64,000 nt of DNA from Pecten maximus (taxonomy: Eukaryota): the NCBI RefSeq assembly GCF_902652985.1, contig NC_047022.1, positions 15,252,001 through 15,316,000 of the forward strand. The letters are read 5' to 3'. Below the pieces are notes generated by a model that was not told the DNA's origin, ran no database searches, and saw only the letters and a program-made list of their open reading frames with translations. This document shows, one piece after another, positions 38,029 to 64,000 of this stretch (positions are counted from its first letter, which is position 1; every line of letters starts with the position of its first letter). The translations under genes and the position numbers were made by a program.

Positions 38029-41000
38029 ATGGTGGGTATATTTGTATATGATACACGCACTTTATTTTATCTAATCTATCTCGGCAAAGTTTTCTTCATA
38101 CTCGTCAGTTGTAAAGTAAGAACTAAAGAAAAACAGACGGTCGGTGTAAATCTTTACTAGTGGCATAATGTAAGTGTAGCCATACTAGACGAATCAGAAA
38201 ATTTCCAGATTATATACGGTACTTCGAATAGACGAAGGGGGATGGGGAATACCAGTAGATATATAGTAATAGTTTTAATATTTAGAAATATTATCTAGAG
38301 AAGTGTATGTTTCTAAAACCAGTAATTTATTTTAGAAATAGTGTATATTCATAACACATTATTTCTTTACAGTTCCGTTTTGGCAGAGGACAGTTTGAAA
38401 TGGGGAGCAAGTTTAAGGAGACATACCGTTGTTATTCGGTGTCCATGATGGGTGATCGTGACGATGTAGAGAGAGGAGGAAAAAGTGAGCAACATCATTT
38501 GTCGTTTGATAGGATTAAAATGTGTCACAAACTGGTATGAAATCTATAGCTCCTTCCTACTGACTAGCTAGTCAAGGGAGAATTTCTATGAGCTCAATTG
38601 ATAGACTATCGAGCCAGAGGTCCCAATTTTTATCCTTATGAGATCTAGAGGAATTGAAACAATAATGGCTTGCCCAAATTGCAGTGTATATGAAACATGT
38701 TCATGGATACGTACTCCTATACGTATATGAGGTCTTATTCCACCTGATTACATTGGTGGATATTGTGACCTCATATCCCATCAGCGTGTTTTTCTTGTAG
38801 CTGCTAGCGCCCTGAATCTGGGGCACCACCAAAAAGTGTCATATACCATGCATCTCAAACGAGAATTCATGTTAACAAATATGTGTACTCTTGCTTGTTG
38901 ATGAAGTATCAATCCATTTATACACATACTGTTGATGGACACCTCTCAAATATAATTATATCCACAATAATTCACTTGCAACCTACTGTGTTCAAATATT
39001 AGGTCACTAAAACAACTTTGCTGTTCCGGTTATTATAAAATACGGAACACAAATAAAATGGATAGCATAACGCAATATTTTCACTGCATTTCGTTTGTTT
39101 CGACTATTTCAACTCCAAATTTGGATAAACCGGAAATAACCTTGAGAGGTCACAACTCCAAATTTGGATAAACCAGAAATAACCTCGAGAGGTCACAATC
39201 AAAAAAAGTATGGCGGGATATACAAATGGGACCTAAGCTTAAACGACAAAAGAGGCTAATAATCACTAATCTTGGATAAAGATATGGACACAATAGTTCT
39301 ATGTTTATTTATCATAGCTTTATAGAATTATGTAAGTCACATCGTATAAAATGTGAGTTATTAATAACTTTTAAGCGATTTCAATTAGAGGTGTCACAGC
39401 AATAGGTTCTACGTGCGGTGGTGATTAGAGGTTACATGACAGCCTGTCAAAAGTTTCCTGTCGTGTAAACCTCTAATATTATTGGAGTAGTTCATGGAAT
39501 GCTTAACATTTCACAGAAAAAAATAGCTAGGGTCTGCTATAGTAGACATGTTCCCTTTTTATTACATTGTGTAAAAATGATGGAGAAAGGTCTTAGGGTA
39601 TGAGTTCACCTTAATTATTAGAATTTGTCATCTGCATTCTTGGCATATAATAAATTGTAATAGTAGAGGGAAAATGCACGGCCAGAGCAGGGTTCGAACC
39701 CGGGACCTCCAAACACTAGCCGGATGCTCTACCAATTGAGCTACGTGGTCGCTGGCGTTCATCCCAGTCCAGTTCCGCTACATTCCCCCCTCCTTCAACA
39801 AAGTCTTCAACCACGAAGACACACATGAGTCCCTATACCACCTCTGTGGGTATTTAGTTTGGCGACATATGTAATTGGTGAACCCGGTCCCTCCAAACAC
39901 TAGCCGGATGCTCTACCAATTGAGCTACGTGGTCGCCGGCATTCATCCCAGTCCAGTTCCCCTACATGATTTTACATATAATTGGAGGACTATACAGTTG
40001 TATTTGGCCAAATTGTCTTTTTTGTTTTAACATGTCACTAAATCGACAGAAGAAATCAATTAGCAAAAATAGCAGCATGAAGAAAATTTTACTGTTACTG
40101 AAAGTGGTGTTTCAGATAATCTGTGCTCCTTCACGCACCCATAATACAGGAGGCTATGTAATTATAATGCTTTACTTATATTGTGTTGTATTCTTTCAGT
40201 TATGATGCCACCATCTGCTTTGGATAAATTAAGTAAGTAAATTTCAAAGATAAATTTTCTATTGAAACTTTTAAATTTTTATCCCCAAGATATTTGCAAC
40301 TATTGATATTTTTTGGAGTTGTTTTAAAAACATGGTGTCCAAGTAGGGAGACATCAATTCCTGTAAGTTTTAATTTTAATAAGTAGTAATTTGAATGAGC
40401 CTAAGAACCCTGTTTTGTAATTTTATTAAAAAAAATTATAAACCCTTTTATGATTTATTTTTTCATAGCTCGCCTCCATATACAGTACCCAATGTTGTTC
40501 AAGCTCAGTAACAAAGGCAAGGCCAGGGAGACACATTGTGGGGTGCTGGAGTTTGTTGCAGATGAAGGCAGGATCTTCATACCTTACTGGGTATGTTTGG
40601 TCACTATACTGTATTACTATATACTGAGTTTGTAGCTAATTAAAATGTAATGTATGTCATATACTGTGTAGGTTTGACCAGCAGGAGGTTCTCTAAAGGC
40701 TGATATTACAAAATAACTTTGTTTTTATAACTTATCATTGCAGCAATGGCTTTATTGATGCAAATACAATGTACATTGTACATACATTCTAATGTAAGTT
40801 GAGATTCATTAATGCTTGTTTCAAGAGGCCCATAATGTAATATTGGTGTTTACTGAAGTGGAACATGATATGTCATGTAGATCACTATTCCACATGTAAT
40901 ATTGGTGTTTACTGAAGTGGAACATGATTAGGCCATGTAGATTTCTATTCCACATGTAATATTGATGTTTGCTGAAGTGGAACATGATTAGGCCATATAG

Positions 41001-44000
41001 ATCACTATTCCACATGTAATATTGGTGTTTACTGAAGTGAAAATGATTAGCCATGTAGATCCCTATTCCACATGTAATATTGGTGTTTACTGGAGTGAAA
41101 ATGATTAGCCATGTAGATCCATATTCCACATGTGATATTGGTGTTTACTGAAGTGGAACATGATTGGGCCATGTAGATCCCTATTCCACATGTAATATTG
41201 GTGTTTACTGAAGTGGAACATGATTGGGTCATGTAGATTTCTATTTTACATGTGATATTGATGTTTACTGAAGTAAAAATGATTAGCCATGTAGATCCCT
41301 ATTCCACATATAATATTGATGTTTACTGAAGTGGGACACGATTAGGTCATGTAGATTTCTATTTCACACGTGATATTTGTGTTTACTGAAGTAGAACATG
41401 ATTAGCCATGTATATCACTATTCCACATCTATAACAATAACTGTTGTATATAACAGATGATGAAGAACCTGCTACTGACAGAGGGAGACATGGTGACCGT
41501 AGAAAATGTGTCCCTCAAAGTGGCCACTTTTGCACGGTTCCAGCCCCAGAGTGTGGACTTCCTGGACATAACCAATCCAAAAGCTGTGTATCCTTTTGTA
41601 AATGTAGTCTGTGTAACGTCTGATATAACTATAGTTTGTATAGAATAGTTATTATGTGTTCTCTGAGCCACCATTTCTGCCAAAGGTTGTTCTGCAATAA
41701 GGTCTTCATACATTATCTATTACATACTGTAATAATGTACTCTACCAAAGGATATTTATGTTAATGGAAATCATGGAATATTTGTGATTTTATGCTACTG
41801 TATTTGTTGATACTAATTTTCTCAAAAACATAATCTGTGAATTTGATTGGTTTGGTTGCACAGTGGATAGCTTACTTGCCATTCACAGAGTCAGGCTTAT
41901 TGTAGTTTTATATTTAAGTAAAGCCCCCCCTAAGCCTATGTGTGTTTTTGTAAGGCTGCCATATGTCCGTGTTTGTCTCCATGTGATAGTTTGGAACTTA
42001 TGATGACTTTATAGTGCTATCTTTCACAGAGGCAGCCAGAGTTTTTCTCCCTGATCAGATGTATGAACTTTTTCCTGTCCATGTTTTCCGCCCATGTTTC
42101 CTGTCCATGTTTCCTGTCCATGTTTCCTGTCCATGTTTCCCGCTCATGTTTCCTAACCATGTTTCTCAGCCACATTTCTTGTCCATGTTTCCTGTCCACA
42201 TTTCTTGTCCATGTTTCCCATCCGTGTCCATGTTTCCCGTCCACATTTCTTGTCCATGTTTCCTGTCCATGTTTCCTGTCCATGTTTCCCACAATTTAAA
42301 ATTAAGATGCAGCCTCAAATCAAACATTTTAATTAACAAGTATAGAAACAGCTGTTGCTAGAAGTGGGCAATATAAACAGGAACAGACTGATATCGATAG
42401 AAAACAGGCTGACAATGACAACAACATGATAAAGATTCATTATACATGTATGTACAATTTGAGTGATATTTTAAGAAAGTAGTACATGTGTATGTCTATA
42501 TACAGTATTTCTTTTTGTAGTCACTGAGCTCTGTTATTATCCTTAAATCTTGTCTTTAGTTTAGAGAACATGCTAAGAAGTTTTGCCTGTTTATCAACAG
42601 ATGACATAATCTCCATCAAGTACAATGAAAGGGTAAGTAATGATATAACAGACCGTAGCCAGTGTTATCTGCAAAAGGGACAAATGAGACAATGAGATAA
42701 ATATTTACCACTTACAAGAAAAAGAAAACAATACAAATTTAGAAAAACTTTGTTTTAACAAAGTTACTGTAAAAGCTTGCAAGGCAGAACTTTGGAATTT
42801 TGTTTTCTTTGAAAAGAATTATTCTCAAGTCCAAACAATTGCTGAAATATATGGAACTGTTTTGTAATGAAGCTTCATGTATTATACAGGAAGTTTGATA
42901 TCTTATATCCTTTACTCATGACGGGGAGAAGGTTTAATAGTATAAACATATAGAAAGACTTCTACGATGACATCAACTAGAACAACCCTTACAGGATCTG
43001 CAACTTCAAGGGGAGACAACTTGGTATGATTTAGAAACAAGACAACCTTGTATGCTTTATACACATTGTTAATATATATTTCTAGAGTAAAGGTTATCAT
43101 TATGATACATGTACAAGTTTATGGTATCACTAGGTAGTGTTAACCTGCTAGTCTTTATCATAGTTCTCGTAAAATCAGATGAAAGACTAACCATTATTGT
43201 TGGTTTTTAACAGGAGTACGAGATGTTGGTATTGGAGACACGACCCGACAAGGCAGTATCCATAATTGAGTGCGACATGAACGTGAGTACTAATCTGTTT
43301 TTAAGAGTTATTTAAACAAATATTAAACCTTTCTGCAGATAGAATAAATCATTCTTGGTGTACTGGGTAGAGGTTTTTGACATACGATGACTTCATTTAC
43401 TACACTTTCAAGGTCACAAGGATCAATATCTTAAAATCTCTAAGCCTCCCTTTCTGAAAATCCCCAAGTTTAAATGAAAAAGCAATTTTCCTGTTGCTTT
43501 CTTGAAAGCATACTTCCAAATGATACAGTTTAGCTTTCTTGCGTACTCACGAAGATCCTTGAAGTAAATTTGGCCTTGGATGCTGAGGATGTGAGATATG
43601 TTTTCTAGCAGCACTGAATAATAGGTGAGTGATACAGACCCATTGGGCCTTTTCTTAAAATCTCTTTCTCTGAAATGATATGACATCATTACAGGTAGAC
43701 TTTGCACCACCTGTAGGCTACAAGGAGCCAGTACCGATGAAGAAACAGGAGGAAGAGGATTTAGATGCAGATGTGAGTCTAATTATAATGCTCTTGACAA
43801 TGTTTAACTTTAATTACATAATTCATATAGGACATGTAAAACAAAAACAGGTAAAAATACCTGCATCTTGTAACAACTGTAACAACTGTAACATTGTAAG
43901 AGGAAAGTCTTGTGAGAAAAAATTTGATTTTGATTATTATAAATTCCCACATTGTGTTAAAAGTATGGGTGAAGAAAGTCTCATTTGAATCTGATTTTTT

Positions 44001-47000
44001 GTAAATAAGAGGTAATCAGGGAGATTATGTTACATCTAAACAAAACTTTGTCATTTTATTTCAAAAATAAACAATCAATAATGTAATATTTTAAAAGGAA
44101 AGAATAGTTGAGATTTATTTCACTATCTAAATTTTTTTTTTTTTAAATTAGAGAGGAAGTGAGATAGAATGTAGGTTATGTTGTTCATGATTAGGCTTGT
44201 TTTTTTAGCCAACCATCATGAGATGGTGGGCTATTCAAATCGCCTTGCGTCTATAGTCTGTGATCCGTCCGTCCGCCTGCCCTTCCTTCCGTCTGTACGT
44301 CAGTCCCTCTATAAACAATTCTTGTTATCGCTATTTCTCTTCAAATTTTGGTACTGATTGGAAAACAACATGGCCGACAGGCTACCATCTTGGATTTTGA
44401 CAATTGAAGATTGTTATCGCTAAATCTCAGAAAGAACTGAAAGGACCTTTTTCAAATTTCATGTGTAAGTTGCCCTTGATCCCTAGTTATGCATATTGCA
44501 TTGTGGGACCGATCGGAAATCACCATGGCCGACAGGCGGCCATCTTAGATTTTGACAAATGAAGTTTTTACCGTTAGATCTCAAAAAGTACTGAAGGGAT
44601 GTTTCTCAAATTTCATGTGTCGGTTTCCCTTGGTCCCTTTTTCTGCATAACACATTTTGGGACCGATCAGAGAACATCATGGCTGACAGGGGCCATCTTG
44701 TATTTTGACAATTGAAGTTTGTTACTGCTATTTCTCAAATTTAAGTACTAATAGCGATTACAAGTCTTTCTCAGCTTTGAATGTAGATGTTCCCCTTGGT
44801 CCCTAGTTGTTCATGCAAGTCTGATTGAAAGAACTAAGTGGATGACAAAGAGTGTGGCCATCTTGGATTTTGACAATTGCAGGTTGCTCCTGCTATATAA
44901 TATTATATAAAGCTATTAAATGTTTTTAAGGAATAGTGAAAGAAGGGGAAAAAAGAGAAAAGATAAGTCTTTCATTTGATAGATATAGATTGTTTTATAC
45001 CAGTAATATCAACAGCTATGGTCAGTTATGGACTGCCTTCCCTGTGTACAAGATGTATGCATGTTATTATTTTTATTGTGTGTGTGTATGTTTACGGAGG
45101 CTGTGGTATGTTTGTTTGTTTCCATGTGATAGCCTAGAATTAATGCCGTCTTTATAATGCTGAAGTTTACTTCCCAAGACATTCAGCAGTCACCCCACTT
45201 AGTCACATTATACTTAGAACAGGCAAACCAATCATCACACTCCCAGAATGCTGAATGCTAAGCAGGAGTAGTAACTACCAGTTTTATAGACTTCAATCTT
45301 CCTCACGTGTGCTCTTCTTAAGGCAAAAAATGAGGCAGTTTCAAGGGAGACATTACGTAGATAGAAAGATGTTTAGAAAGAAAGAGAAAAAGAAGATCCG
45401 AGATTTAGTCACCTCATTTGAATTATGCAATGGGAACAGCAGGAACCAATCTTATGCCCTAGTCAGGTAGTCATGAATTGTAATTAATGGTTGTGTGACT
45501 TAGTTGTTATCTATAAACTATTTTTCTGTTCCAGAATGCTATGGACGTAGCTGACTGTATGGATAACGCATTTAGGGTAAGTGTGGGGACACTTGATAAA
45601 CAAATTTATCAAATTAATCCAAACATTTCATTGCACACAAGAATCAATGCCAATTTTGTATAACTGCAGCCATAAAGATGATAATACATTTCATACAAAC
45701 ATCATTTGCACTCAAATTTTATACCTCTTTAAAAGATATGAAATTTAATTACAAAGTAGGTAATGTAGAATTCTGAACTGTCCTTACAGGCATTTAGTGG
45801 ATCTGGAAACAGACTAGACGGTAAGAAGAAGGGTATGGAGACAGATAATCAGATCACCCCTACAGGGCCTCCAAAAAGGTGAGAGAGACTTAACAGTATT
45901 TCACAGACTCATTCAGCAAGTTAAAAAGAGATCGATATTTTACACTGATGTCATTATGAGGTCTGATAATATCTCTTCTATTACCTAAAATATTTAGAAA
46001 AAAAATCTGAAATAAGTAAAAAATGAAGGAGCATTTATATATTTTTGATACCAATCTAGTTCTTAACATTTTTTTAAAAGCAAATCAGAAACACAGAAAT
46101 AGTCTAGTCTCTTTATAGAAATAGAATATGTTACAGAATATTTTTCATCTTATCTACCAAGTTTTTGATTTCTGTGTTCCCCTGGTCACTTGAATATCTT
46201 TTGTTATATCTCTAGGGGAATTCCAAACTACAACTACAAAAAAGGAACTCTCACATTTATCCGGACACAACGACAGATACAGACAAATGGGGAGGATGTA
46301 AGTTTGGTTAATGTAAAGTTATTTCTGTAAGATGTAAAAATTTAAATCGTCATGTGAATTTCACAATATTTTAGATAAATGGATTAAAAATTAAACTGTA
46401 TTAGATTTGTCATAAAAGATATTTGATTATTACTCTAGACTGTTTGATTTAGGGTTGTCCCTGTAGTCAATGGTTACATACACAACTAGATTTAGGGTTG
46501 TCCCTGTAGTCAATGGCTACATACACAACTAGATTTAGGGTTGTCCCTGTAGTCAATGGTTACATACACAACTAGATTTAGGGTTGTCCCTGTAGTCAAT
46601 GGCTACATACACAACTAGATTTAGGGTTGTCCCTGTAGTCAATGGTTACATACACAACTAGATTTAGGGTTGTCCCTGTAGTCAATGGTTACATACACAA
46701 CTAGATTTAGGGTTGTCCCTGTAGTCAATGGCTACATACACAACTAGATTTAGGGTTGTCCCTGTAGTCAATGGTTACATACACAACTAGATTTAGGGTT
46801 GTCCCTGTAGTCAATGGCTACATACACAACTAGATTTAGGGTTGTCCCTGTAGTCAATGGTTACATACACAACTAGATTTAGGGTTGTCCCTGTAGTCAA
46901 TGGCTACATACACAACTAGATTTAGGGTTGTCCCTGTAACCAATGGCTACATACACAACTAGATTTAGGGTTGTCCCTGTAACCAATGGCTACATACACA

Positions 47001-48379
47001 ACTAGATTTAGGGTTGTGCCTGTAGTCAATGGCTACATACACAACTAGATTTAGGGTTGTCCCTGTAACCAATGGCTACATACACAACTAGATTTAGGGT
47101 TGTCCCTGTAACCAATGGCTACATACACAACTAGATTTAGGGTTGTCCCTGTAACCAATGGCTACATACACAACTAGATTTAGGGTTGTCCCTGTAATCA
47201 ATGGCTACATACACAACTGGATTTAGGGTTGTCCCTGTAGTCAATGGCTACATACACAACTAGATTTAGGGTTGTCCCAGTAGTCAATGGTTACATACAC
47301 AACTGGATTTAGGGTTGTCTCTGTAGTCAATGGCTACATACACAACTAGATTTAGGGTTGTCCCTGTAGTCAATGGCTACATACACAACTAGATTTAGGG
47401 TTGTCCCTGTAGTCAATGGCTACATACACAACTAGATTTAGGGTTGTCCCTGTAGTCAATGGCTACATACACAACTAGATTTAGGGTTGTCCCTGTAGTC
47501 AATGGCTACATACACAACTAGATTTAGGATTGTCCCTGTAACCAATGGTTACATACACAACTGGATTTAGGGTTGTCCCTGTAGTCAATGGCTACATACA
47601 CAACTAGATTTAGGGTTGTCCCTGTAACCAATGGCTACATACACAACTAGATTTAGGGTTGTCCCTGTAGTCAATGGCTACATACACAACTAGATTTAGG
47701 GTTGTCCCTGTAGTCAATGGCTACATACACAACTAGATTTAGGGTTGTCCCTGTAGTCAATGGCTACATACACAACTAGATTTAGGGTTGTCCCTGTAGT
47801 CAATGGCTACATACACAACTGGATTTAGGGTTGTCCCTGTAGTCACTGGCTACATACACAACTAGATTTAGGGTTGTCCCTGTAGTCAATGGCTACATAC
47901 ACAACTAGATTTAGGGTTGTCCCTGTAATCAATGGCTACATACACAACTGGATTTAGGGTTGTCCCTGTAACCACAGGCTACATACACAAAGATTTACAA
48001 TATTTGATATAAAATATAATTTCTGTCACATAATTATTTATCAGTCTGAGTGAAAAATGACATAAATGAGGGGTGCAGAGTATACTCATAAAGGTACTCT
48101 TTTATAGAAACTTCTCTCACTTTTAAATCTTTATAAGGAAACGTTTTGTATTACTGTTTGTGAATTTGTGAGTGGGTTGGATCACAAATGTGCATTTATG
48201 TGAAATGAGAAAACAAAAGAAATTAGATTTTGTATACAGCAACACTATTGTCACCTAACAGATCCATGTAAGTAAGACGTCAATTCATCGTTTTTCTTTC
48301 TATCTAGGATAAAGATGGAAAAGGATTCGAAGCATTTTCTGGATCAGGACAAGCCCTACGCAAAAAGGGACGGAAGTGA
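38029..48379 (+). CDS. UFD1: Ubiquitin recognition factor in ERAD 1 (p97/VCP cofactor), 301 aa, 12 exons
   Basis: Exons 38029-38031 (ATG only), 38373-38484 (YRCYSVSMM...ERGGK), 40200-40232 ([11 protein letters not shown]), 40469-40590 (YPMLFKL...[13 protein letters not shown]), 41457-41587, 42560-42632, 43214-43282 ([10 protein letters not shown]), 43695-43772 ([12 protein letters not shown]), 45535-45576, 45790-45878 ([13 protein letters not shown] box), 46216-46297, 48308-48379 ([17 protein letters not shown]). Total 906 nt. Confidence 0.95.
39656..39966 (-). mobile_element. TRIM (miniature LTR element) with tRNA-like sequence in both LTRs, Helenus-type
   Basis: LTRs 39656-39782 and 39870-39966 (internally deleted), both TG...CA. 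On the minus strand, PPT AAGGAGGGGGGAA (39783-39795) directly precedes the 3' LTR, and a PBS-like TGTCGCCAAAC lies 2 nt after the 5' LTR. The internal part is only 87 bp. The LTRs carry A-box TAGCTCAATTGGTAGAGC and B-box GGTTCGAACCC (B-box damaged in the deleted copy). Confidence 0.75.
40833..41428. repeat. ~59-60-bp minisatellite, ~10 copies, UFD1 intron 4
   Basis: Unit ATGTAATATTGGTGTTTACTGAAGTGGAACATGATTAGGCCATGTAGATCCCTATTCCAC; ends ~28 bp before exon 5. Confidence 0.9.
41588..42559 (+). other. U12-type (minor spliceosome) GT-AG intron in UFD1
   Basis: 5' site GTATCCTTT at 41588; branch-point-like TCCTTAAAT ~42540-42548, about 10 nt before the AG at 42558-42559. Splicing gives PKAV|LENML in frame. 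Confidence 0.85.
42070..42292. repeat. 13-bp tandem repeat inside the U12 intron
   Basis: Unit CATGTTTCCTGTC. Confidence 0.9.
44203..44900. mobile_element. Non-autonomous Helentron-like element in a UFD1 intron
   Basis: TTTTAGCCAACCATC...GATGGTGGGCTA hairpin; (CCGT)n; ~4 internal repeats of CATGGCCGACAGGCGGCCATCTTGGATTTTGACAATTGAAG. Confidence 0.65.
44990..45292 (-). mobile_element. Degenerate, 5'-truncated SINE with a Meta-domain-like core
   Basis: GTCACATTATAC...GGCAAACCAATC...CACTCCC...ATGCTGAATGCTAAGCAGG...ACTACCAGTTTTATAG resembles mollusc MetaSINE cores; related fragments at ~34690-34810 and ~41950-42030. Confidence 0.5.
46446..47991. repeat. 43-bp minisatellite, ~36 copies, last UFD1 intron
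   Basis: Unit GATTTAGGGTTGTCCCTGTAGTCAATGGCTACATACACAACTA; very homogeneous. Confidence 0.95.
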
Positions 48380-52762: not shown

Positions 52763-55700
52763 TCTCACTCTCGTGTCCGTAAACACAACTCCAACTCACT
52801 CTCGTGTCCTTATACACAAATCCATCTCACTCTCGTGTCCGTATACACAACTCCATCTCACTCTCCTGTCCCTATACACAACTCCAACTCACTCTCGTGT
52901 CCATATACACAACTCCATCTAACTCTCGTGTCCGTATACACAACTCCATCTCACTCTCGTGTCCGTATACACAACTCCATCTCACTCTCGTGTCCGTATA
53001 CATAACTCCATCTCACTTTCCTGTCTGTATACACAACTCCATCTCAATCTCATGTCCCTATACACAACTCCATCTCAATCTCATGTCCCTATACACAACT
53101 CCAACCCACTCTGATGTCCGTATACACAACTCTATCTCACTCTCGTGTCCGTGTACACAACTCCGTCGCACTCTCGTGTCCCTATACACAACTCCATCTC
53201 ACTCTCGTGTCCATATCCACAACTCCAACTCACTCTTATGTCCCTATACACAACTCCGTCGCACTCTCGTGTCCCTATACACAACTCCATCTCACTCTCC
53301 TGTCCGTATACACAACTCCATCTCACTCTCCTGTCCGTATACACAACTCCATCCCACTCTCCTGTCCGTATACCCAACTCCATCCCACTCTCCTGTCCGT
53401 ATACACAACTCCAACTCACTCTCATGTCCGTATACACAACTCCATCTCACTCTCCTGTCCGTATACACAACTCCATCTCACTCTCATGTCCCTATACACA
53501 ACTCCATCTCACTCTCGTGTCCCTATACACAACTCCAACTCAATCTTATGTCCCTATACACAACTCCATCTCACTCTCATGCCCGTATACACAACTCCAA
53601 CTCACTCTGATGTCCGTATACACAACTCCATCTCACTCTCCTGTCCGTATACACAACTCCATCTCACTCTCGTGTCCCTATACACAACTCCAACTCAATC
53701 TCATGTCCGTATACACAACTCCATCTCAATCTCATGTCCGTATACACAACTCCATCTCACTCTCCTGTCCGTATACACAACTCCAACTCACTCTCGTGTC
53801 CCTATACACAACTCCAACCAAATCTCATGTCCCTATACACAACTCCATCTCACTCTCATGCTCGTATACACAACTCCAACTCACTCTGATGTCCGTATAC
53901 ACAACTCCATCTCACTCTCATGTCCGTATACACAACTCCATCTCACTCTCATGTCCCTATACACAACTCCATCTCACTCTCCTGTCCGTATACACAACTC
54001 CATCTCACTCTCCTGTCCGTATACACAACTCCAACCCACTCCGTATACACAACTCCATCTCAATCTCATGTCCCTATACACAACTCCATCTCACTCTCCT
54101 GTCCGTATACATAACTCCAACCCACTCCGTATACACAACTCCATCTCAATCTCGTGTCCCTATACACAACTCCATCTCAATCTCATGTCCCTATACACAA
54201 CTCCATCTAACTCTCGTGTCCCTATACACAACTCCATCTCAATCTCATGTCCCTATACACAACTCCATCTCAATCTCGTGTCCCTATACACAACTCCATC
54301 TCAATCTCATGTCCCTATACACAACTCCATCTAACTCTCGTGTCCCTATACACAACTCCATCTAACTCTCGTGTCCGTATACACAACTCAATCTAACTCT
54401 CCTGTCCCTATACACAACTCCATCTCAAGCTCATGTCCCTATACACAACTCCAACCCACTCTGATGTCCGTATACACAACTCCATCTAACTCTCGTGTCC
54501 CTATACACAACGCTATCTAACTCTCATGCCCGTATACACAACTCCAACTCACTCTCGTGTCCCTATACACAACTCCATCTCAATTTCATGTCCCTATACA
54601 CAACTCCTTCTCACTCTCGTGTCCCTATACACAACTCCGTCTCACTCTCCTGTCCCTATACACAACTCCATCTAACTCTCCTGTCCGTATACACAACTCC
54701 AACTCACTCTCATGTCCCTATACACAACTCCATCTAACTCTCATGTCCGTATACACAACTCCAACTCACTCTCATGTCCCTATACACAACTCCATCTAAC
54801 TCTCATGCCCGTATACACAACTCCATCTCACTCTCATGTCCGTATACACAACTCCATCTAACTCTCATGTCCCTATACACAACTCCGTCTCACTCTCGTG
54901 TCCCTATACACAACTCCGTCTCACTCTCCTGTCCCTATACACAACTCCAACTCACTCTCATGTCCCTATACACAACTCCAACTCACTCTCATGTCCCTAT
55001 ACACAACTCCAACTCACTCCCGTGTCCCTATACACAACTCCATCTCACTCTCATGTCCCTATACACAACTCCAACCCACTCCCGTGTCCCTATACACAAC
55101 TCCATCTCACTCTCATGTCCCTATACACAACTCCAACTCACTCCCGTGTCCCTATACATAACTCCATCTCACTCTCGTGTCCCTATACACAACTCCAACC
55201 CACTCTCGTGTCCCTATACACAACTCCAACCCACTCTCGTGTCCCTATACACAACTCCAACCCACTCCCGTGTCCCTATACACAACTCCAACTCACTCTC
55301 GTGTCCATATACACAACTCCAACCCACTCTCGTGTCCCTATACACAACTCCAACCCACTCTCGTGTCCCTATACACAACTCCAACCCACTCCCGTGTCCC
55401 TATACACAACTCCAACTCACTCTCGTGTCCCTATACATAACTCCAACTCACTCTCGTGTCCATATACACAACTCCAACTCACTCCCGTGTCCCTATACAC
55501 AACTCCAACTCACTCTCGTGTCCATATACACAACTCCAACTCACTCCCGTGTCCCTATACACAACTCCGTCTCACTCTCGTGTCCCTATACTCAACTCCA
55601 ACTCACTCTCGTGTCCATATACACAACTCCAACTCACTCTTGGTCCCTATACACAACTCCAACTCACTCTCCTGTCCATATACACAACTCCAACTCACTC

Positions 55701-55926
55701 TCGTGTCAGTATACACAACTCCAACTCGATCTCGTGTCCGTATATACACAACTCCAACCCACTCTCCTGTCCGTATAGGGACACGGGAGTATGATGGAGT
55801 TGTATATAGGGACACGAGAGTGAGTTGGAGTTGTGTATAGGGACACGGGAGTAAGTTGGAGTTGTGTATATGGACACGAGAGTGAGTTGGAGTTGTGTAT
55901 AGGGACACGGGAGTGAGACGGAGTTA
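52763..55926. repeat. 31-bp satellite, ~100 copies; terminal ~5 units inverted
   Basis: Unit TCCATCTCACTCTCGTGTCCCTATACACAAC to ~55775, then the reverse complement (TATAGGGACACGAGAGTGAGTTGGAGTTGTG) to ~55926. Confidence 0.95.
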
Positions 55927-56277
55927 CATGTGACATTATAGGGACACCCGAGTTCTATGCCTTGTTTGTAGATTGCCTGTAGCTCTCTGTTGAATCGTCA
56001 CGCACACTCGTAAAGTATCTCAACTCCTTAGGACGAATGGTGTTAATATTGGCACGCTGACTCGCTATGGTACGTTTGGGTAATGAGAAAGTGATATCCA
56101 TCAGAGATACCATTGACCGCCTGTCTTATGAAAGTATGATCAGACTTATAGCAGTTCTCCATGAGGATAAAACACGCCAGCCTATCCGTGTGTGTAAATA
56201 GATTAATATTTAGTACACAAGATTAAGACAGGGGATCATTACGATGGCCGATATCAGCCGTCACGTTACTCGCATTT

Positions 56278-56598
56278 ATGTGATGCGAGTAACCTGACAT
56301 AGTAAAAATCACATGACATGTTACTAGCATGTGATGCGAGTAACCTGACATAGTAAAAATCACATGACAGGTTACTAGCATGTGATGCGAGTAACCTGAC
56401 ATAGTAAAAGCACATGACATGTTACTAGCATGTGATGCGAGTAACATGACATAGTAAAAATAACATGACAGGTTACTAGCATGTGATGCGAGTAACATGA
56501 CATAGTAAAAATCACATGACAGGTTACTAGCATGTGATGCGAGTAACCTGACATAGTAAAAATCACATGACAGGTTACTAGCATGTGATGCGAGTAAC
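56278..56598. repeat. 51-bp minisatellite, ~6 copies, internally palindromic
   Basis: Unit ATGTGATGCGAGTAACCTGACATAGTAAAAATCACATGACAGGTTACTAGC, containing AGTAACCTG...CAGGTTACT. Confidence 0.9.
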
Positions 56599-57184
56599 TG
56601 TACACAGTCGCGAATGAGATGACTGTACACTTACAAAACCCATTAACATTCCAGAGTATCGTTTTACTAGACCTTTCAAAAGAGGTTATCATGGCGACTG
56701 TAGAAAATGGTTTTATAAGCCAAGGTGTGGCATGTATATACAATGGAGCTCGTGTAGTCTTGTCAATTCATTATTTGACCACAGACTAATTGCAACAGAT
56801 TATTAAAAAAAATCCTGTAGATTGGTATATTTATGTGATAGAAAGAAATGCCCTCAAATCTAAATTGGGGGAAATGGTTTTATTCACCAAATAGAATTGA
56901 GGAAATAAGAGAAATTGACCAATATTATACTCTTGAGTGACATTGGACGAGAGATTTTGTATGCAACACAAATAGACTAAAATAGTCAATTGGAACCATA
57001 TGTACTATACTGCACAAAGCCACGAACTGGATGGCAGAACAGTTGCAAAACCCATTAACATTTCAGAGTATAGTTTTACTTGATCTTTCAAAAGAGGTTA
57101 TCATGACGACGGTCAGATATCTACGCAATTTTGTTTTATCCTGATTAAACCGGTTTTATAGCTAAGGTGTGGCATGCAGTTACA

Positions 57185-57909
57185 ATGGATCTCCTGGAGG
57201 AATGCGTAACTTGTGAGTATTAATTATTGTTGCTGATTTGGTTATATTTGCCAAACATTTGGTTTATGTAACTTTTGAAAGACAAAAATCAAAATTTTAC
57301 AATGACATGATGTTGAAGTTACATTTCTGGTATATTGCAATCATTATGCTTTATTGAATTTATTCAACAGTGAATGATGGTTTGGTTATCCTAGCGACAA
57401 AGAACTATCCTTACAAAGACATGTCAGGATTGATTTACAAACAATATGGACAGTATTTAAGGTAAATTTAAGTGTATAACTTTTGATAGTAATTCATCAA
57501 TATATTTCTGACGGATAATAAGAAAAACTTTGAACTGTGTAGAGAAAGTTTGCATCCAGTATAACCCAACTCTTATTACGTAAGGTGTATATGTATATCC
57601 AGATTGTTATTAAAATACATTATAGTTTATACAATAAGAGTTGTGCATACAAATTTGAAATAATGTCAATACTCTTGGATGTATTAGGGCCTTTTATAAT
57701 ATTCATGTCCCTCTAACAGGAAGTCACTATGTATTGTTTGACAACAATGTTTTACACCAACCTGGTTTTGATGAATACATAATGTCGGTAACTAACAAAA
57801 TGAACATTTTTGAAAGGAAATGTTTGTGTATCAGATACTTCATATAAATAGTCTGTTTTCTTTCAATTTATACATGTAAGTCCCCACACGCAGTGTTCTG
57901 GTGTAATTC

Positions 57910-57940
<31 letters not shown>

Positions 57941-57952
57941 TGAGTGTGAGTG

Positions 57953-57988
<36 letters not shown>

Positions 57989-60900
57989 ACAGAGTGGAGG
58001 GGGTTATAGTTCCTCTCCAACTGTGTACATAGGCTTCATTCCTGAATTGTTTATATTAAATTTTACATCAGAGCAATGTCACCGTAATATGTTTTAGATT
58101 TCATAATTGATAATACGTCACAATGTCAGCATTAATCAGTTGCTTCATTTTATTTTTGGAAAGTATCAGCAGAGTGCTGAATCTTTATAGAATACTGTGA
58201 ATATTAACCTCCATGGGTGAAGAGGGGGACAATAGCTAGGGTCATACATTGTTTGTTTGTTGTCTCTTCTAGTCCAAATGCCATCGGCAAACGACTAAAA
58301 CGTCTAGGAATATTGCCCAGGAAAGGAATTACTTTACATAGCGAGGATGACATTAAACACACTATTCAGGTTAGTAACAAGACTAGCTATCACTGTATTG
58401 TCACGGAAATGATGTTTTGATCGCTGAGGTTCATGATCAAATATGGTGTATCGACTTAACTGGAAATATGATTGGCTATGACGATTGCATAATTCCAGTT
58501 GATATGGAATCAAGTCAATATTAATAACATATAATAAAGTAAAAACACGGAAATAATTTAGTAGAAAATATTGCGTTTGCTTCAAAGACTTCAAATCTTT
58601 TGTCGTTATGTGACCACGAGATTCGTTTAATGTACATGAAAGGGTCGAACACGTCTGCTTGCTGTTCTCTGTAATCTTCAAAAGACAGGCGTCCGAGCCT
58701 AGTGATTGGTCAGTTTTTTCACCTGAGCAAGCCGTCATTTTCGCTATGAAATGTTCCAGGGGTGAAGAGAGCATAAGTACTCGTAATCCCTGGATGTTGG
58801 CACTGTTGCAGCGTTATAGACAAGTTTATATCTTAATTATGTGTTAGCAATATTACAGGTTATTTTACATGATTTGCCGGAGACTGTTGGCTACAGGAGC
58901 ATGACCAATATACTCTGTCGGAAAGGAATGCACGTGAGAAGGTGTGTATACAGAATTATTATGAGCTGAATTGTTTGTATGAAAAGTCATTTCGATTTCC
59001 CATGAATGAGCGAAATGAGAAAACATTATTATGCTTTACCTTTTGAAACTTTCGTTCTAACACCCTCTCCAGAATGTGACTGAGTGAAAGCTTTTATAAC
59101 TCTCTTGACAATGGCAACACATGTGCGCAAGCTGGTTGATAAGCTTTAATAGGATATATCTAAATTAGTCTTCCAAACAATGGTAGAACTATTCAGCGAC
59201 ATTATAGTGACCATTCGGTGCATTGAAATCGATGGATGTGTTTTTACTACTTAATAGAAATAGGGTTGATTGGATGCAAAATGCAAAAACATAATTTTGC
59301 TTACTTTTTTAAATAAAAAATTCCTACGTTCACACACTCAAACCTTTTAAATTGTTCCTGTGTTTCCATCTTGTCACGTTGATGTTGGTTTGCCGAATGT
59401 GTGTTCTTGTGTATGCTTCCTCTTGTATTCCAGGGACATTGTCATGAAAGCAATGAGGGAAGTCGATCCGGATGGAACTGAACACCGACGGAGACGTAGG
59501 ATTCAAAGAAGAGTGTACAGATCCATTGGGCCAAATCACACTTGGCATGTTGATGGGTAAATACTGGATAATCGTATATGATTTCAGATTATGTCCCAAA
59601 GTTCTGTAGCCGACACGGTGTCGTATTACTTTATATTATAGAAGTATTCCCTCGAAAATGTTGCTATTGCTAAGTATTGATATTTTGAAACATTATAATT
59701 TATCATGATCATAGTGCCGTAAAATATCAGTCCACAATAAATGTTCAAAAAAGTACTTTCAATGTCAACATCGGGTACATACATTACGGTACTAAAGACT
59801 GACTAAACATATCATGCACAGTTGCCTTATCAAATCTGAAAGGATCTTTCATTTCGTACTATAAGTAAAGTTGATCAGTGTAATTTATAAAATGTAATGA
59901 TGTGTCAGATTTTAAGATTTGGTTACATTTTATTTAAAAAACATGATATTATGTCGTTTATTCAACATAATATAATGTCTTTTATTCGACATAATATTAT
60001 TTCGTTTAAACGAAATGATGTCATTGATTCAACATAAACTTATGTTATTCGACATACTATTTTTCTTGACTTGGTCCACTTGGGCTTCCGTAGGATTAAA
60101 TTGTTGCAGTTTGGGCAATATAATCCGATTAGTATAAACCCATATGAATCTAGCTAGAATATAAATATTAAATATTTCATGAAATCATGTTATTTATTAG
60201 AGTAAACATAACTCATCATTTTATAAGGATCCGTTGTAAAATACTGTATGACCATTAGAAGTATTTAGTGATTAAAGTGATCATATGAATCGAACTGAAA
60301 TTAGACTATTTGTATTTTACTTTTTAGGTATGACAAAATGAAGCCTTTCGGTTTTGCAATCCACGGATGCATAGACGGGTAAGTAAGTAGTTAATCATAT
60401 TTGAAATACTTACTATGTTCCTGAAACAATTGGTACAGAGCAGTCTACAACATTTCGACAAAGATAATCATAATTGTCTGTGTTTATCGTTTCACCAACT
60501 GCTAAAAGTATACTACATATATTTTCATTTTTTGTTGATCAACATACATGCAAGCTCATACAGAAAGGAAAATATAACATTAGTCTAAACACGCTTCAAC
60601 GTCAGTGTAGATCTAGGATGTAAGGCAGAAATATAAATGTAGTATGGGTAAATACAAGCAGAGAACAGTCATCTGTTGACAGTTGATCAATGCGATCTCC
60701 AACGTAACAATTATGACGTCCCAATGGTCAAATGTGTGTTATACGAAAACTTGAAGCAAACATTTGACCCAGAAGTTTCATCTAGGCACTGTTAAATAAG
60801 TAAACGTATATGAATGATTTATTACACATTTACTACAATTTACAAATACATACTTTTGTTCTGTAGATACTCCAGAAAGGTCATGTGGTTGACAGTAGGA

Positions 60901-63323
60901 CCGTCTAATAATGATCCAAGGATTGTCGCAACAAATTTTGTCCAGTGTGTAAACAGAGTGAAAGGTAGAACGATATATGCATGTTCAAATACCCCTTAAT
61001 GAAAGTCTTATCTTGATTACCATTAAACGAAAACATTTACTAGACAGTGTAGCTTTCTTTGATAACTGATAGTCATTTTATCTTTTTATGTGAGGGTTTT
61101 AAGTACCTCTCACGAGGCTACAATGACAGCCTTTTACGTCTTACATCACCACAACCACCGACATACAATTATCTTAATAATGCTGGTGCTATACATGGTC
61201 ACCTGTCATACTATCAGCACTTAAATCAGGGTCGACATTTGAATAGCACATGGCGTGAGGGTTGGATGAAAATATTTACATTTACGCTGCATTGTCACTA
61301 TATGAACCAACCAAAATCTGATTCTTTTCATCAGATCAAGAACCGAAACGAGTAACATTACAAGCGTGTGCTGAAGGTTAACAAACAATGCAGGTGTCAC
61401 GCCGAATTACCGTTTTGTACGAGAAGATGTAGAAAGTATCTTAATTAGATAATCTCGTTCACTTTGCCGACTTTTATAGCTTTAGCCGGCAAAATTAAGT
61501 CAACATTTGTATTCACGAATCGAAAATATAAGCATCGTCAATACAAGTAGTAAGTTTTAATCATTCACTAATCACCGTTGATGGAAAAGAATCACGCAGA
61601 AGGGTTTGTTCCGTTAACTTACATTCCATAGCTTCTTCATTTAAGCATTAAATTGCATTCTGTTTCGATTGATAGGCATATGAACGCACACTGCATTACA
61701 GAAAAATAGCGCGGTTCATTCTATTTTTCCATTCGTGTCTAATTAAATGTTGTTTCACATAACATAAAATTGTTGCGTCCAGATGAACTGAGACTACCCA
61801 TTTATAGATTGAACTCATATTTCGGTCGTGGTAGGTAATAAGCAATAGCTATCAAAATATATACATGTAGTAGGTCCATTTCAAGTCATTCTAAACACAT
61901 ACACATTTTTTCATAATTCAAGTTTCTTACTTTGTTTATTGCGTTCTGCAAACACGATACACATGGTTTTCTTTGTTTAGGATGTCCAATTGTATTGCAA
62001 ACTGATCCTGGGACGGAAAATGTTATTATGGGAGGAATACAGTGTGTTTTCAGACATGAGGCAGATGACTGTTTTTCTGGTATCAATTCTTTCCGTGTTT
62101 CGCGGTCTGTATTCAACCAGGTAAGTTTCTGCTACTGGTAAATTTCAAGAACATAATACCAAAGCACTAATTAGATCTCCGCACACAAGTGCGGGTGCCC
62201 TATAATTACCGTTTCCGTCCGTCCATCCGTCCGTCTGTCTATCTGTCTGTTCGTCAGCACATTTGTTTCGGATAAATATTATTTGTTTGTTTGATTTTCC
62301 CTGAGTCGATCCAACTTAAACCTCCCCTTCCCTTATTGAGATTTTTTGCTCGATATTGCTTTCAGGGACAGGGTAAGAATGCAAAGGTCGAGGTCACAGT
62401 AATTATAGATAAAGTATCAGTTTTCATTTAATATCTAGATTTTCCGAAATTAAAACCTTATAACATGCTTCCTGATTGTAAGCGCCTGCTTGAGATTGAT
62501 TTTCATCAGCGAAGGTCAACGATCCAGGTCATTGTTATAAAATGTAGGAAATCAATTTCAATGCAATCTAACTAAGACATCTTTCTGTACTACCTTACTG
62601 AAAACATTTTCTTAGAATCGATTAATAATTTTAAATGTCAAATGTCAAGATCAGTGAATAAAAATAGAAAATCAGTTATCATGCATTAAATTCTGTTTGC
62701 TTTTGACAATCAAACTGAAACTTCTGTCAAAATGTATCGGTATTTATATTTTTGTTTTTACGTTAAACAAGAAAATATTTTATAAATGATAAACATAATC
62801 AACCAATATCTTCACCAGGAATGTGAGTGTCTATATATATAGGAAGGGGACTTCCAGTCCCACTGCGGGGCCCTCACTGACATGTTGGTATTCTAGTTAC
62901 ATATAGTGTGTAACAGAATGAAATAGGGTATTAGTTCTATGCACTCACGCACACATCTATATTGAATGATGATTTTCTTTGTGTCGTAACTATACAATAT
63001 ACTCGTTATTAAGAATTCCATGACTACATGTATGATTGTAATTATCAATGTGAAAAGAGTAATATAACACACAAAATTATTCATGTGTATTAACGGTATC
63101 ATAGCAAAGTAAACAAGCTATATACTGTAGCAATGTGATACACAATAGTGTGATGGGATATGTTTTCGCAACAAGATTTAGAGTTGATATAAGACAATGC
63201 TTAAATTTAGAGGATAGAAGCATGGTGGAGTATGTTGAGGCGGCGCCAAACTCATTCATGGATCGCTATGCTGAAGGACTTCGAGGCATTGGGCAACTTT
63301 CACCGGGGAAATGTCAATGAAAT
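57185..63323 (+). CDS. Spliced DDE integrase-core/transposase gene (IS3/IS481-type, IS3EU-like); continues past the last traceable exon
   Basis: Exons 57185-57212, 57371-57461, 58273-58369, 58859-58941, 59434-59556, 60328-60378, 60867-60964, 61981-62120, 63211-63323; all GT-AG, phase-compatible, no stops (~274 aa so far). Motifs: KRLKRLG (HTH-like), GYRSM, VDPDG..RRRRRIQRRVY..GPNHTWHVDGYDK..FAIHGCIDGYSRK, QTDPGTEN, SVFNQRIEAWW, giving a D-D-E triad. Confidence 0.85.
57910..57984. repeat. (GT)n microsatellite
   Basis: Interrupted GT dinucleotide run. Confidence 0.95.
62171..62898. mobile_element. Non-autonomous Helentron-like element in an intron of the transposase gene
   Basis: Terminal hairpin CCGCAC...GTGCGG; (CCGT)n 62215-62235; AAGGTCA-type internal repeats; ends TTCTAGTT. 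Confidence 0.6.
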
Positions 63324-63336
63324 GTATGTTTACATT

Positions 63337-63761
63337 CAATCTGATTAAAATCTAGATAGCCATTCTCACTACGTTACATGAACATCTAACAACACCCCAT
63401 AAGGGGTCACGTCAGGGTAACCTTTTGGATTAGCCAATCAAATGACTACTTCCAGAATCCTGGAAGTGAATTTTATATGTCCGAATTAGCATGACTAGCG
63501 TGCATAGCTTGTATAATCTGACAATTTGTTTCAAGTCATTTCGTCTCATATAGTATATAGCTATATACTGTGCCGAAATGGTTTGCTTCAGATGCATGTT
63601 GTGACGAAATGTTTTGCTTCGATGACATCGACAAAATGCCAATTCGCCCTGAAAGTGAAATACACACATCTCAGAGGTCATCCGATCGTGACCCCTTATG
63701 GGATGCTGTTAGATGTTCATGTAACGTAGTGAGAATGACCATCTAGATTTTAATTAGATTG
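63337..63761. mobile_element. Mutator-like MITE with 9-bp TSD
   Basis: ~75-bp TIR (CAATCTGATTAAAATCTAGATAGCCATTCTCACTACG... and its reverse complement); perfect TSD GTTTACATT (63328-36 and 63762-70). Confidence 0.85.
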
Positions 63762-64000
63762 GTTTACATTGATTTTAATTATTCAACAAAACGATAATAT
63801 TACATAATACTATTTAGTATATTCATTAGAAGTTAATATCAACATGTTTGATGAAATATGAGAAAAGAAATTATATGAAGTATAAATTGGTTTTTGAAAT
63901 TAGATGTGAGAGAAGTTAAATTGAAGTGTCTTAAATGAATTATGACACCTGTAATCGCCAGCATATGGTTAAACAAGAAAAACCACCTCTTTTTAACAGA

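What the first reader, a model, noticed from the sequence alone, without database searches (positions are those of the whole stretch)
57185..63323. Intact, intron-rich IS3/IS481-type DDE transposase gene that the ORF track misses
Seen: nine small exons join with canonical, phase-compatible splice sites into an uninterrupted frame with an HTH-like N-terminus and the catalytic WHVD / QTD / QRIE triad. The introns are up to ~1.1 kb and hold other elements (Helentron-like, Mutator MITE, GT microsatellite), yet the coding frame shows no lesion. I found no clear 5' TIR upstream. Known: this motif set is typical of eukaryotic integrase-core proteins of IS3EU-like DNA transposons. Inference: either a very large, still-functional spliced transposon, or a domesticated recombinase under purifying selection. 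This is my best candidate for an undescribed system here.
Basis: partly seen in the sequence, partly recalled or inferred. Interest (0 to 1): 0.7.

Follow-up and report, generated by a model that had tools for sequence, protein, structure and literature searches.

The report
Intron-rich IS3EU transposon with ubiquitin ligase
The gene is the spliced, intact transposase of a complete 17-kb jumping gene (IS3EU type) in a scallop, not a domesticated host gene, and the same element family carries a second, facing gene for a shortened ubiquitin-ligase-like protein that likely binds and regulates the transposase.

Summary
The spliced DDE gene is real: 11 exons, 393 aa, D140-D199-E240. Introns 2-10 are spliced in transcript contigs from three studies. 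The gene lies in a 16,827-bp element with TACG..CGTA inverted repeats and a 6-bp target duplication. A second long copy is 99.7% identical, and the 22-bp terminus has 73 exact hits in the genome. Three sister families (19-23 kb) share the ends and, where mapped, the exon layout. It is a mobile IS3EU/GingerRoot transposon; domestication is refuted.

Facing the transposase is a 12-exon gene: three ubiquitin-like folds plus a HECT domain about 90 residues shorter than Rsp5's. It is open in the second copy and lacks three exons in the window copy. A complex prediction for a sister pair gave weak support for binding (0.60, best control 0.27).

I found the HECT partner in no paper, but this scan noted IS3EU+HECT in at least 11 other genomes. 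Verdict: new variant of a known superfamily.

The parts
56234..56239 (.). Left 6-bp target-site duplication GATCAT
56240..56657 (+). Left terminal inverted repeat (starts TACGATGG; contains a 51-bp tandem array)
   Evidence: self-BLAST 94% over 308 bp with the right end, first 78 bp identical; 51-bp period measured on the right arm
57185..57212 (+). Transposase exon 1 (ATG, 28 nt, phase-1 donor)
   Evidence: same 28-nt exon and donor in sister family C13b; junction not seen in transcript contigs
57371..57461 (+). Transposase exon 2 (HTH region; holds M27, the RefSeq start)
57911..57985 (.). GT microsatellite in intron 2 (approximate limits)
   Evidence: sequence
58273..58369 (+). Transposase exon 3
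58859..58941 (+). Transposase exon 4
59434..59556 (+). Transposase exon 5 (first catalytic Asp, D140)
60328..60378 (+). Transposase exon 6
60867..60964 (+). Transposase exon 7
61981..62120 (+). Transposase exon 8 (second catalytic Asp, D199)
63211..63323 (+). Transposase exon 9 (catalytic Glu, E240)
63337..63761 (.). Nested MITE in intron 9 (94-bp arms, 9-bp TSD at 63328-63336 and 63762-63770); also present in the second copy on C7
64000..64000 (+). First base of transposase exon 10. The gene goes on past the window (numbers continue the window's count, i.e. G000:C8 position minus 15,252,000): exon 10 64000-64151, exon 11 with stop 64466-64671
64000..64000 (-). Placeholder for ORF2, which lies wholly past the window (continued count, minus strand): exons 72565-72564, 72450-72365, 72250-72098, 71846-71713, 71268-70929, 70680-70475, then three exons missing (about 6.6 kb absent at the poly-C/CA tract 67365-67458, present in the C7 copy), then 66941-66820, 66494-66320, 65418-65180 (HECT C-lobe with the catalytic-Cys motif); AGACC-type satellite in an intron at 67768-69591
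64000..64000 (.). Placeholder for the right end past the window (continued count): right terminal inverted repeat 72700-73066 ending CCATCGTA (G000:C8:15325066) and right target-site duplication GATCAT 73067-73072

Best explanation
The gene is the intact, spliced transposase of a 16.8-kb IS3EU/GingerRoot DNA transposon bounded by inverted repeats and a 6-bp target duplication; it likely moves the whole element and its short derivatives by cut-and-paste, and the facing HECT-type gene likely binds and ubiquitylates the transposase to tune its level. Shown: ends, TSD, copies, splicing of introns 2-10, catalytic triad, the two-gene layout in four families. Inferred from family knowledge: N-terminal HTH domains bind the TIR arrays and the integrase-fold core cuts both ends and joins them across a 6-bp stagger. 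The element moves as DNA, so introns and nested repeats travel with it (the intron-9 MITE is in both copies). Inferred, weakly: the role of ORF2 (about 35% that the transposase is its substrate). In the window copy ORF2 lacks three exons and would need the C7-type copy in trans if it is required. The confidence given is for the mobile-transposon part.
For: TIR and TSD. Second long copy on C7: 12 mismatches in 4,203 aligned bases and a different right flank. 73 exact hits of the 22-bp terminus, 0 for the reversed control. Of 22 loci examined, 14 distinct short copies had both ends and 11 of the 14 had a perfect 6-bp TSD; two of the 11 share flanks, one locus was a duplicate, 7 were unpaired. 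Sister elements with the same 12-bp terminus and own 6-bp TSDs: 19,098, 20,495 and 22,790 bp, each with transposase and convergent ORF2. The 19-kb family has further copies at 98-99.7% on C13 and C10. Exons 2-10 have identical lengths and phases in the C8b family and in C15 except one codon in exon 8, at 50-57% protein identity. Pfam rva_4 102 bits; model pLDDT 92.8, nearest folds retroviral integrases, TnsB, IstA. Introns 2-10 joined in contigs: 9 of 9 in X5 and X3, 8 in X6, 7 in X1. ORF2: 701 aa, open, 12 GT-AG-bounded exons in C7; HECT matches; ubiquitin-like folds. A distant 9.6-kb IS3EU in the same genome also has a convergent HECT ORF. Complex prediction for the C8b pair: weak support, 0.60 against best control 0.27, runs agree in at least 26% of contacts, partner pLDDT at least 58; the mark was reached by 51 of 78 solved and 2 of 108 mismatched pairs, but at 0.60 or under by only 5 of 78 solved and all 4 passing mismatches; on eukaryotes 39 of 65 novel solved pairs and 2 of 126 unrelated pairs.
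Against: No empty site was found: the left flank is single-copy in the assembly, so the insertion is not shown to be polymorphic. The left part of the C7 copy is behind an assembly gap, so its TSD and exons 1-8 are unseen. Intron 1 is not seen spliced, and contigs in X1, X3 and X6 run across its donor; if it is retained, translation from M27 would lack the first helix. The 6.6-kb loss in the window copy could be an assembly collapse at a poly-C/CA tract; no DNA reads were laid. The ORF2 HECT is about 90 residues short, so it may not be an active ligase. The complex score is at the level the tool calls more often wrong than right unless likely beforehand, neighbours picked blind passed 7 of 44 times, and the chain used lacked the HECT C-lobe.
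Confidence: 0.9

Rival explanations
1. A domesticated single-copy recombinase under host purifying selection.
For: Intact frame, 10 introns, spliced transcripts in three studies; 89% identity to an Argopecten protein; pN far below pS between families (pN 0.28-0.37, pS 0.76-0.90); bivalve Tc1-like TLEWI elements with introns were proposed as co-opted (bioRxiv 10.1101/656579).
Against: Near-perfect TIRs, intact TSD, a 99.7% dispersed copy, many short derivatives with TSDs. Sister copies carry stops, a lost donor and frameshifts as decaying transposons do. Selection between families is also expected for transposons. UFD1 ends near 48,360, so the element is not inside it.
Confidence: 0.04
2. Mobile IS3EU as above, but ORF2 acts on host proteins (silencing or chromatin factors, recognised by its ubiquitin-like domains) to protect the element, rather than on the transposase.
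For: Fungal IS3EU carry TET and alpha-kinase genes, the TET genes thought to counter silencing (PMC12730594 passages). ORF2 has three ubiquitin-like folds that could mimic or bind host factors. N-terminal parts of HECT partners differ between IS3EU lineages (C3 versus this lineage).
Against: No host target is indicated by any search; the one complex tested (with the transposase) passed weakly.
Confidence: 0.3
3. Mobile IS3EU as above, but ORF2 is a catalytically dead HECT scaffold or ubiquitin decoy that works as a structural transposition cofactor.
For: The span from the GGP..RE motif to the Cys is 196 residues in ORF2 and 191-203 in 16 of 19 relatives, against about 283 in Rsp5; the missing stretch falls where the E2-docking subdomain lies (recalled from the E6AP-UbcH7 structure).
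Against: The catalytic Cys motif and the C-terminal Phe-containing tail are kept across relatives (rows were selected for having the motif), and the Cys motif in all four local families.
Confidence: 0.25
4. ORF2 is a neutral passenger captured from the host.
For: GingerRoot elements capture gene fragments (PMC6839031 passage); ORF2 is broken in the window copy and frameshifted in C8b.
Against: It is kept in the same orientation in four families whose transposases are as little as 50-57% identical, and a HECT gene faces the transposase in a distant few-intron lineage too. Of 11 genome hits to its middle domain, 7 lie in elements with at least one TIR found; 4 hits on C17, C3957 and C3959 were not resolved.
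Confidence: 0.08

Closest known systems
[quoted passage not shown]
   Same: TA..TA ends, TIRs, 6-bp TSD, integrase-like DDE core with the WH-D-YDK, HG-IDG-SR and NQRIE-WW motifs seen in Repbase IS3EU cores (supplement part 12; closest by eye IS3EU-4_CGi, IS3EU-5_DR); two proteins.
   Different: 17-23 kb against 3.9-12.9 kb for GingerRoot; TIR here about 300-400 bp with a tandem array against 100-150 bp; 10 introns in the transposase and 11 in the partner; partner is Ubl-Ubl-Ubl-short HECT, which I found in no paper.
Fungal TET+ IS3EU (PMC12730594) and Zymoseptoria REP9 (PMC8232023)
   Same: 6-bp TSD, TIRs, accessory genes; in the TET+ elements the alpha-kinase gene is in opposite orientation to the transposase.
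   Different: Ends TAYGG..CCRTA in rust-fungus elements, TACGA..TCGTA here; cargo is alpha-kinase/TET or other genes there, HECT here.
TLEWI, intron-bearing Tc1-like elements of bivalves (bioRxiv 10.1101/656579)
   Same: Spliceosomal introns in a bivalve transposase; copies made after intron gain.
   Different: Other superfamily; 2-5 introns, no TIRs, proposed as domesticated; this element keeps TIRs and TSD and has recent copies.
HECT E3 ligases (Rsp5/NEDD4, E6AP)
   Same: N-lobe start motif, C-lobe with catalytic Cys.
   Different: About 90 residues shorter in the N-lobe; no WW or other known substrate module found; three ubiquitin-like folds instead.

Membership tests
IS3EU/GingerRoot | Termini TA..TA with terminal inverted repeats | tested here: met
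   TACG..CGTA, 60 of 60 first bases identical; definition from PMC10045372 passage
IS3EU/GingerRoot | 6-bp target-site duplication | tested here: met
   GATCAT here; 11 of 14 short copies; three sister elements
IS3EU/GingerRoot | Integrase-related DDE transposase without HHCC motif, first Asp 100-300 residues from the N-terminus | tested here: met
   D140/D199/E240; rva_4 102 bits; HTH N-terminus; folds of integrases, TnsB, IstA
IS3EU/GingerRoot | Transposase groups with Repbase IS3EU sequences in a tree | tested here: inconclusive
   Motifs compared by eye with supplement part 12; Repbase sequences were not in my tree
IS3EU/GingerRoot | Two proteins encoded | tested here: met
   Transposase plus ORF2; definition second-hand from PMC8232023 citing Kojima 2019; the review itself is not held
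IS481EU | TNT..AYA ends; TSD about 4, 15 or 25 bp; single protein; parabasalids | tested here: not met
   TAC..GTA ends, 6-bp TSD, two genes
Domesticated transposase gene | Single copy, no TIR/TSD, no recent dispersed copies | tested here: not met
Domesticated transposase gene | Syntenic orthologue in related species | not testable with these tools
   No DNA of relatives is held; Argopecten homologues come as proteins only
HECT E3 ligase (ORF2) | C-lobe with catalytic Cys | tested here: met
   Pfam HECT 28.7 bits over cut-off 23.9 on the last exon; Cys669
HECT E3 ligase (ORF2) | Full-length N-lobe including the E2-docking subdomain | tested here: not met
   196 against about 283 residues between motif and Cys; identity of the missing part as the E2 subdomain is recalled, not modelled
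HECT E3 ligase (ORF2) | Ubiquitin thioester and ligase activity | not testable with these tools
   needs a bench assay

The most novel reading that the evidence does not exclude
The second gene of IS3EU transposons is a dedicated, transposon-owned minimal HECT ligase that has lost the usual E2-docking subdomain, docks on its own transposase through ubiquitin-like domains and ubiquitylates it, giving a DNA transposon a built-in post-translational switch; in this bivalve lineage both genes have become fully intron-rich, host-like genes while the 17-23 kb element stays mobile, perhaps with intron-1 retention as a second, P-element-like control.
Probability: 0.25. Interest if true: 0.75.

Novelty: new variant of a known kind. 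Interest (0 to 1): 0.42.

Why it matters
IS3EU is one of the least studied eukaryotic transposon superfamilies, and the passages I could read do not say what its second protein is in animals. This locus gives a clean, expressed, recently mobile example with both genes mapped, so excision and ubiquitylation assays can be set up directly. It also shows that an intact frame, many conserved introns and spliced transcripts do not mean domestication: such genes sit in RefSeq as 'uncharacterized' host genes, and many short-HECT 'genes' of molluscs and other animals may likewise be transposon parts. A HECT without its E2-docking subdomain would interest ubiquitin biochemists if active.

Tried and rejected
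Single transposase exons gave no Pfam hit (0 of 9 pieces); the RefSeq protein did. Empty site: the 280-bp left flank has one match only. ORF2 expression: its last exon had next to no cover in four runs; on the C7 stretch four other runs showed no joint between ORF2 exons, only one 160-nt piece inside exon 9 of 12 at depth 2; this is no evidence of silence. The run search listed no holder on record as RNA; the spliced joints are what show these contigs to be transcripts. dN/dS within families was uninformative (C8b/C13 7 non-synonymous and 3 synonymous changes; C15/C17 5 and 2), and dS between families is saturated. Element inside a UFD1 intron: rejected. Helentron-like insert: not verified. 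Horizontal transfer with Argopecten: not testable, no DNA and no host-gene baseline. The unnamed middle domain of ORF2 had no Pfam family; Atlas hits were unnamed clusters, one with HECT in 34% of members; it was not folded alone. C17:13.8-13.9 Mb holds decayed ORF2-like pieces for which I found no matching ends. C9:26.33 Mb and C13:31.34 Mb are internal fragments or deletion derivatives. Literature searches without a relevant hit: HECT + DNA transposon + TIR + transposase + Repbase (3 papers; one checked, no HECT in its text; two seen as listings), transposon + HECT + E3 ligase + 'encoded by transposon' (0), G2E3 + transposon + HECT (1 unrelated listing), IS3EU + ubiquitin (2 listings, not read), HECT + E2-binding + subdomain + lacks + transposon (0); no 'HECT' in PMC6839031 text or in the supplements of PMC10045372 and PMC12730594. 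Earlier-finding look-ups by place, by sequence and by two longer word sets returned nothing.
Full report
1. Observation. The window is G000:C8:15252001-15316000. With two more exons at and past the window end they join through ten GT-AG introns (158-1090 bp) into a 393-aa frame without stops. The acidic residues are D140, D199 and E240. From M27 on, the model equals RefSeq XP_033747421.1 of Pecten maximus, which names the host as very probably this scallop. It scores 102 bits on Pfam rva_4 and weakly on HTH_21. The AlphaFold model (pLDDT 92.8) matches retroviral integrases, TnsB and IstA. Transcript contigs from four runs in three studies join introns 2-10 (9 of 9 in X5 and X3, 8 in X6, 7 in X1). 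Intron 1 is not in the joint table. Contigs in X1, X3 and X6 cross its donor unspliced, though X1 also has other intronic pieces, and the X5 contig appears to begin at the exon-2 acceptor. Exon 1 is nonetheless supported: sister family C13b has a 28-nt first exon with a similar peptide and the same phase-1 donor, and RefSeq's model of family C8b has a phase-1 intron before an exon 2 of the same 91 nt.

2. The element. A self-comparison of the window plus 40 kb downstream shows inverted repeats at 56240-56657 and 72700-73066 (count continued past the window). The first 78 bp are identical and GATCAT flanks both ends. The element is 16,827 bp and starts about 7.9 kb downstream of the last UFD1 exon. 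A second long copy on C7 has 12 mismatches in 4,203 aligned bases, the same nested MITE, a right TIR and a different flank; its left part is behind an assembly gap. The 22-bp terminus occurs 73 times (37 forward, 36 reverse; reversed control 0). Of 22 loci examined, 14 distinct short copies (274-1,440 bp) had both ends and 11 of these a perfect 6-bp TSD; two of the 11 share flanks, one locus was a duplicate and 7 were unpaired. Their best-stretch identity to the window element runs from 79 to 96%, so the family has likely been active over a long span. No empty site was found.

3. Sister families. Three more complete elements share the first 12 bases of the terminus and have their own 6-bp TSDs: 19,098 bp (C8:17.54 Mb), 20,495 bp (C13:8.58 Mb) and 22,790 bp (C15:23.49 Mb). 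The 19-kb family has copies at 98-99.7% on C13 and C10, the 23-kb family one at about 97% on C17. Exons 2-10 have the same lengths and phases in the window, C8b and C15 (one codon shorter in C15 exon 8) at 50-57% protein identity, while intron lengths vary from 114 to 3,533 bp; C13b shows breaks at matching places by tblastn. So the introns are old and the element has moved many times since gaining them. Several copies have stops, a lost donor or frameshifts. In a tree of 43 proteins (three models of mine, two few-intron frames and 38 of the 120 hits listed) the window protein is sister to an Argopecten protein (89% identity, 100/99), then to C13b, in a 14-row group of scallop, oyster and two unnamed proteins (94/87); the few-intron relatives of the same genome lie far away.

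4. The second gene. On the minus strand, facing the transposase, is ORF2. In the C7 copy it has 12 exons with GT-AG boundaries and an open 701-aa frame. It holds a TDP-43-NTD-like fold (Pfam below cut-off here, above it in the C8b protein; TM 0.79 to 6t4b), an unnamed domain with beta-grasp-like neighbours in the Atlas, a ubiquitin-like domain (Z 12.5, rmsd 1.2, 74 aligned, on the C8b model) and a HECT domain. The HECT is short: 196 residues from the GGP..RE motif to the Cys, 191-203 in 16 of 19 relatives that have both motifs (three shorter), against about 283 in Rsp5 by my count on the printed alignment. The gap falls where, from memory, the E2-docking subdomain lies. The window copy lacks about 6.6 kb with three ORF2 exons at a poly-C/CA tract, and the remaining exons would join out of frame; this may be a real deletion or an assembly collapse. 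A distant 9,588-bp IS3EU on C3, with a two-exon transposase and a 7-bp TSD, carries an intronless 687-aa convergent HECT frame, so the pairing is likely older than the intron-rich lineage. Argopecten has both genes at similar identity.

5. Mechanism. Shown: boundaries, TSDs, copies, splicing, triad, layout. Inferred from DDE-family knowledge: cut-and-paste by an integrase-fold enzyme with a 6-bp stagger, which also mobilises the short derivatives in trans. For ORF2 I commit to binding and ubiquitylating the transposase as the single likeliest role (about 35%), ahead of acting on host factors (30%), an inactive scaffold (25%) or a passenger (8%). The idea of docking came from earlier notes of this scan. 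I tested it on the cognate C8b pair: weak support, score 0.60 against best control 0.27, runs agreeing in at least 26% of contacts, partner pLDDT at least 58. The mark was reached by 51 of 78 solved and 2 of 108 mismatched pairs, but at 0.60 or under by only 5 of 78 solved and all 4 passing mismatches; on eukaryotes by 39 of 65 novel solved pairs and 2 of 126 unrelated pairs; 7 of 44 blind neighbours passed. No interface was given and the chain lacked the HECT C-lobe.

6. Comparison with what is known. PMC10045372 (passages; supplement part 12) defines IS3EU by TA..TA ends and usually 6-bp TSDs and lists cores with the same motifs. PMC6839031 (abstract, passages, sections 15-16) gives GingerRoot 3.9-12.9 kb with 100-150 bp TIRs and mentions no HECT. 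PMC8232023 (passages) says described IS3EU encode two proteins. PMC12730594 (passages; supplement search) describes fungal IS3EU with TET and alpha-kinase genes. PMC11934779 (passages) calls IS3EU largely unexplored. bioRxiv 10.1101/656579 (abstract, section 14) describes intron-bearing Tc1-like elements in bivalves without TIRs; its supplements are closed. PMC10294476 (passages), a bivalve TE survey, does not mention IS3EU. PMC5753468 (passage) only lists it. Kojima 2019 could not be read and Repbase entries are not on hand; they may already name the second protein. All directly tested IS3EU features are met; the tree test against Repbase sequences was not done.

7. Novelty and verdict. The transposase is an ordinary IS3EU enzyme, and domestication is refuted. 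What differs from the papers read is the size, the ten plus eleven introns in a still-mobile element, and the Ubl-Ubl-Ubl-short-HECT partner. Five searches found the HECT pairing in no paper, but this scan has 19 notes on IS3EU with HECT in at least 11 genomes, none from this genome; those notes are unchecked leads. New variant of a known kind; interest 0.42.

Noticed in passing
window ~40432-48360 (+): UFD1 gene, several exons, ending about 7.9 kb before the element.
   Followed up: partly
window ~52800-55925: Long tandem array (unit about 31 bp) whose last ~150 bp are inverted (arm 55773-55925), just upstream of the element.
   Followed up: no
window 56597-56701 and 57009-57113: Direct repeat (83%) in the left subterminal region; the downstream copy runs towards exon 1.
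   Followed up: no
window 62060: All four transcript sets read C where the assembly has G (codon 217, Glu to Asp, as in Argopecten): allele, other copy or assembly error.
   Followed up: no
window 63337-63761 and L011 ~1700-2160: Intronic repeats with very deep transcript-contig cover, i.e. high-copy elements carried inside the transposon.
   Followed up: no
G000:C7:41625871-41632464: 6.6-kb non-autonomous element with the same ends and a 6-bp TSD that keeps only the 5' part of ORF2 and no transposase.
   Followed up: partly
G000:C3:10117757-10127344: Compact 9.6-kb IS3EU with two-exon transposase, intronless 687-aa HECT frame and a 7-bp TSD.
   Followed up: partly
G000:C15:23483433-23484945: 1.5-kb derivative with its own 6-bp TSD inserted about 150 bp beside the 22.8-kb parent element.
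   Followed up: no
P0001, P0124 (Argopecten): Both genes have Argopecten counterparts at about 81-89% identity on small scaffolds; recent horizontal transfer between scallop genera is possible but untested.
   Followed up: no
G000:C17:13.83-13.90 Mb: Cluster of decayed ORF2-like pieces in both orientations near a few-intron transposase; no ends found.
   Followed up: partly
P0151, P0196: Unnamed proteins with several stretches like the ORF2 middle domain; P0151 is a tandem array of it.
   Followed up: no
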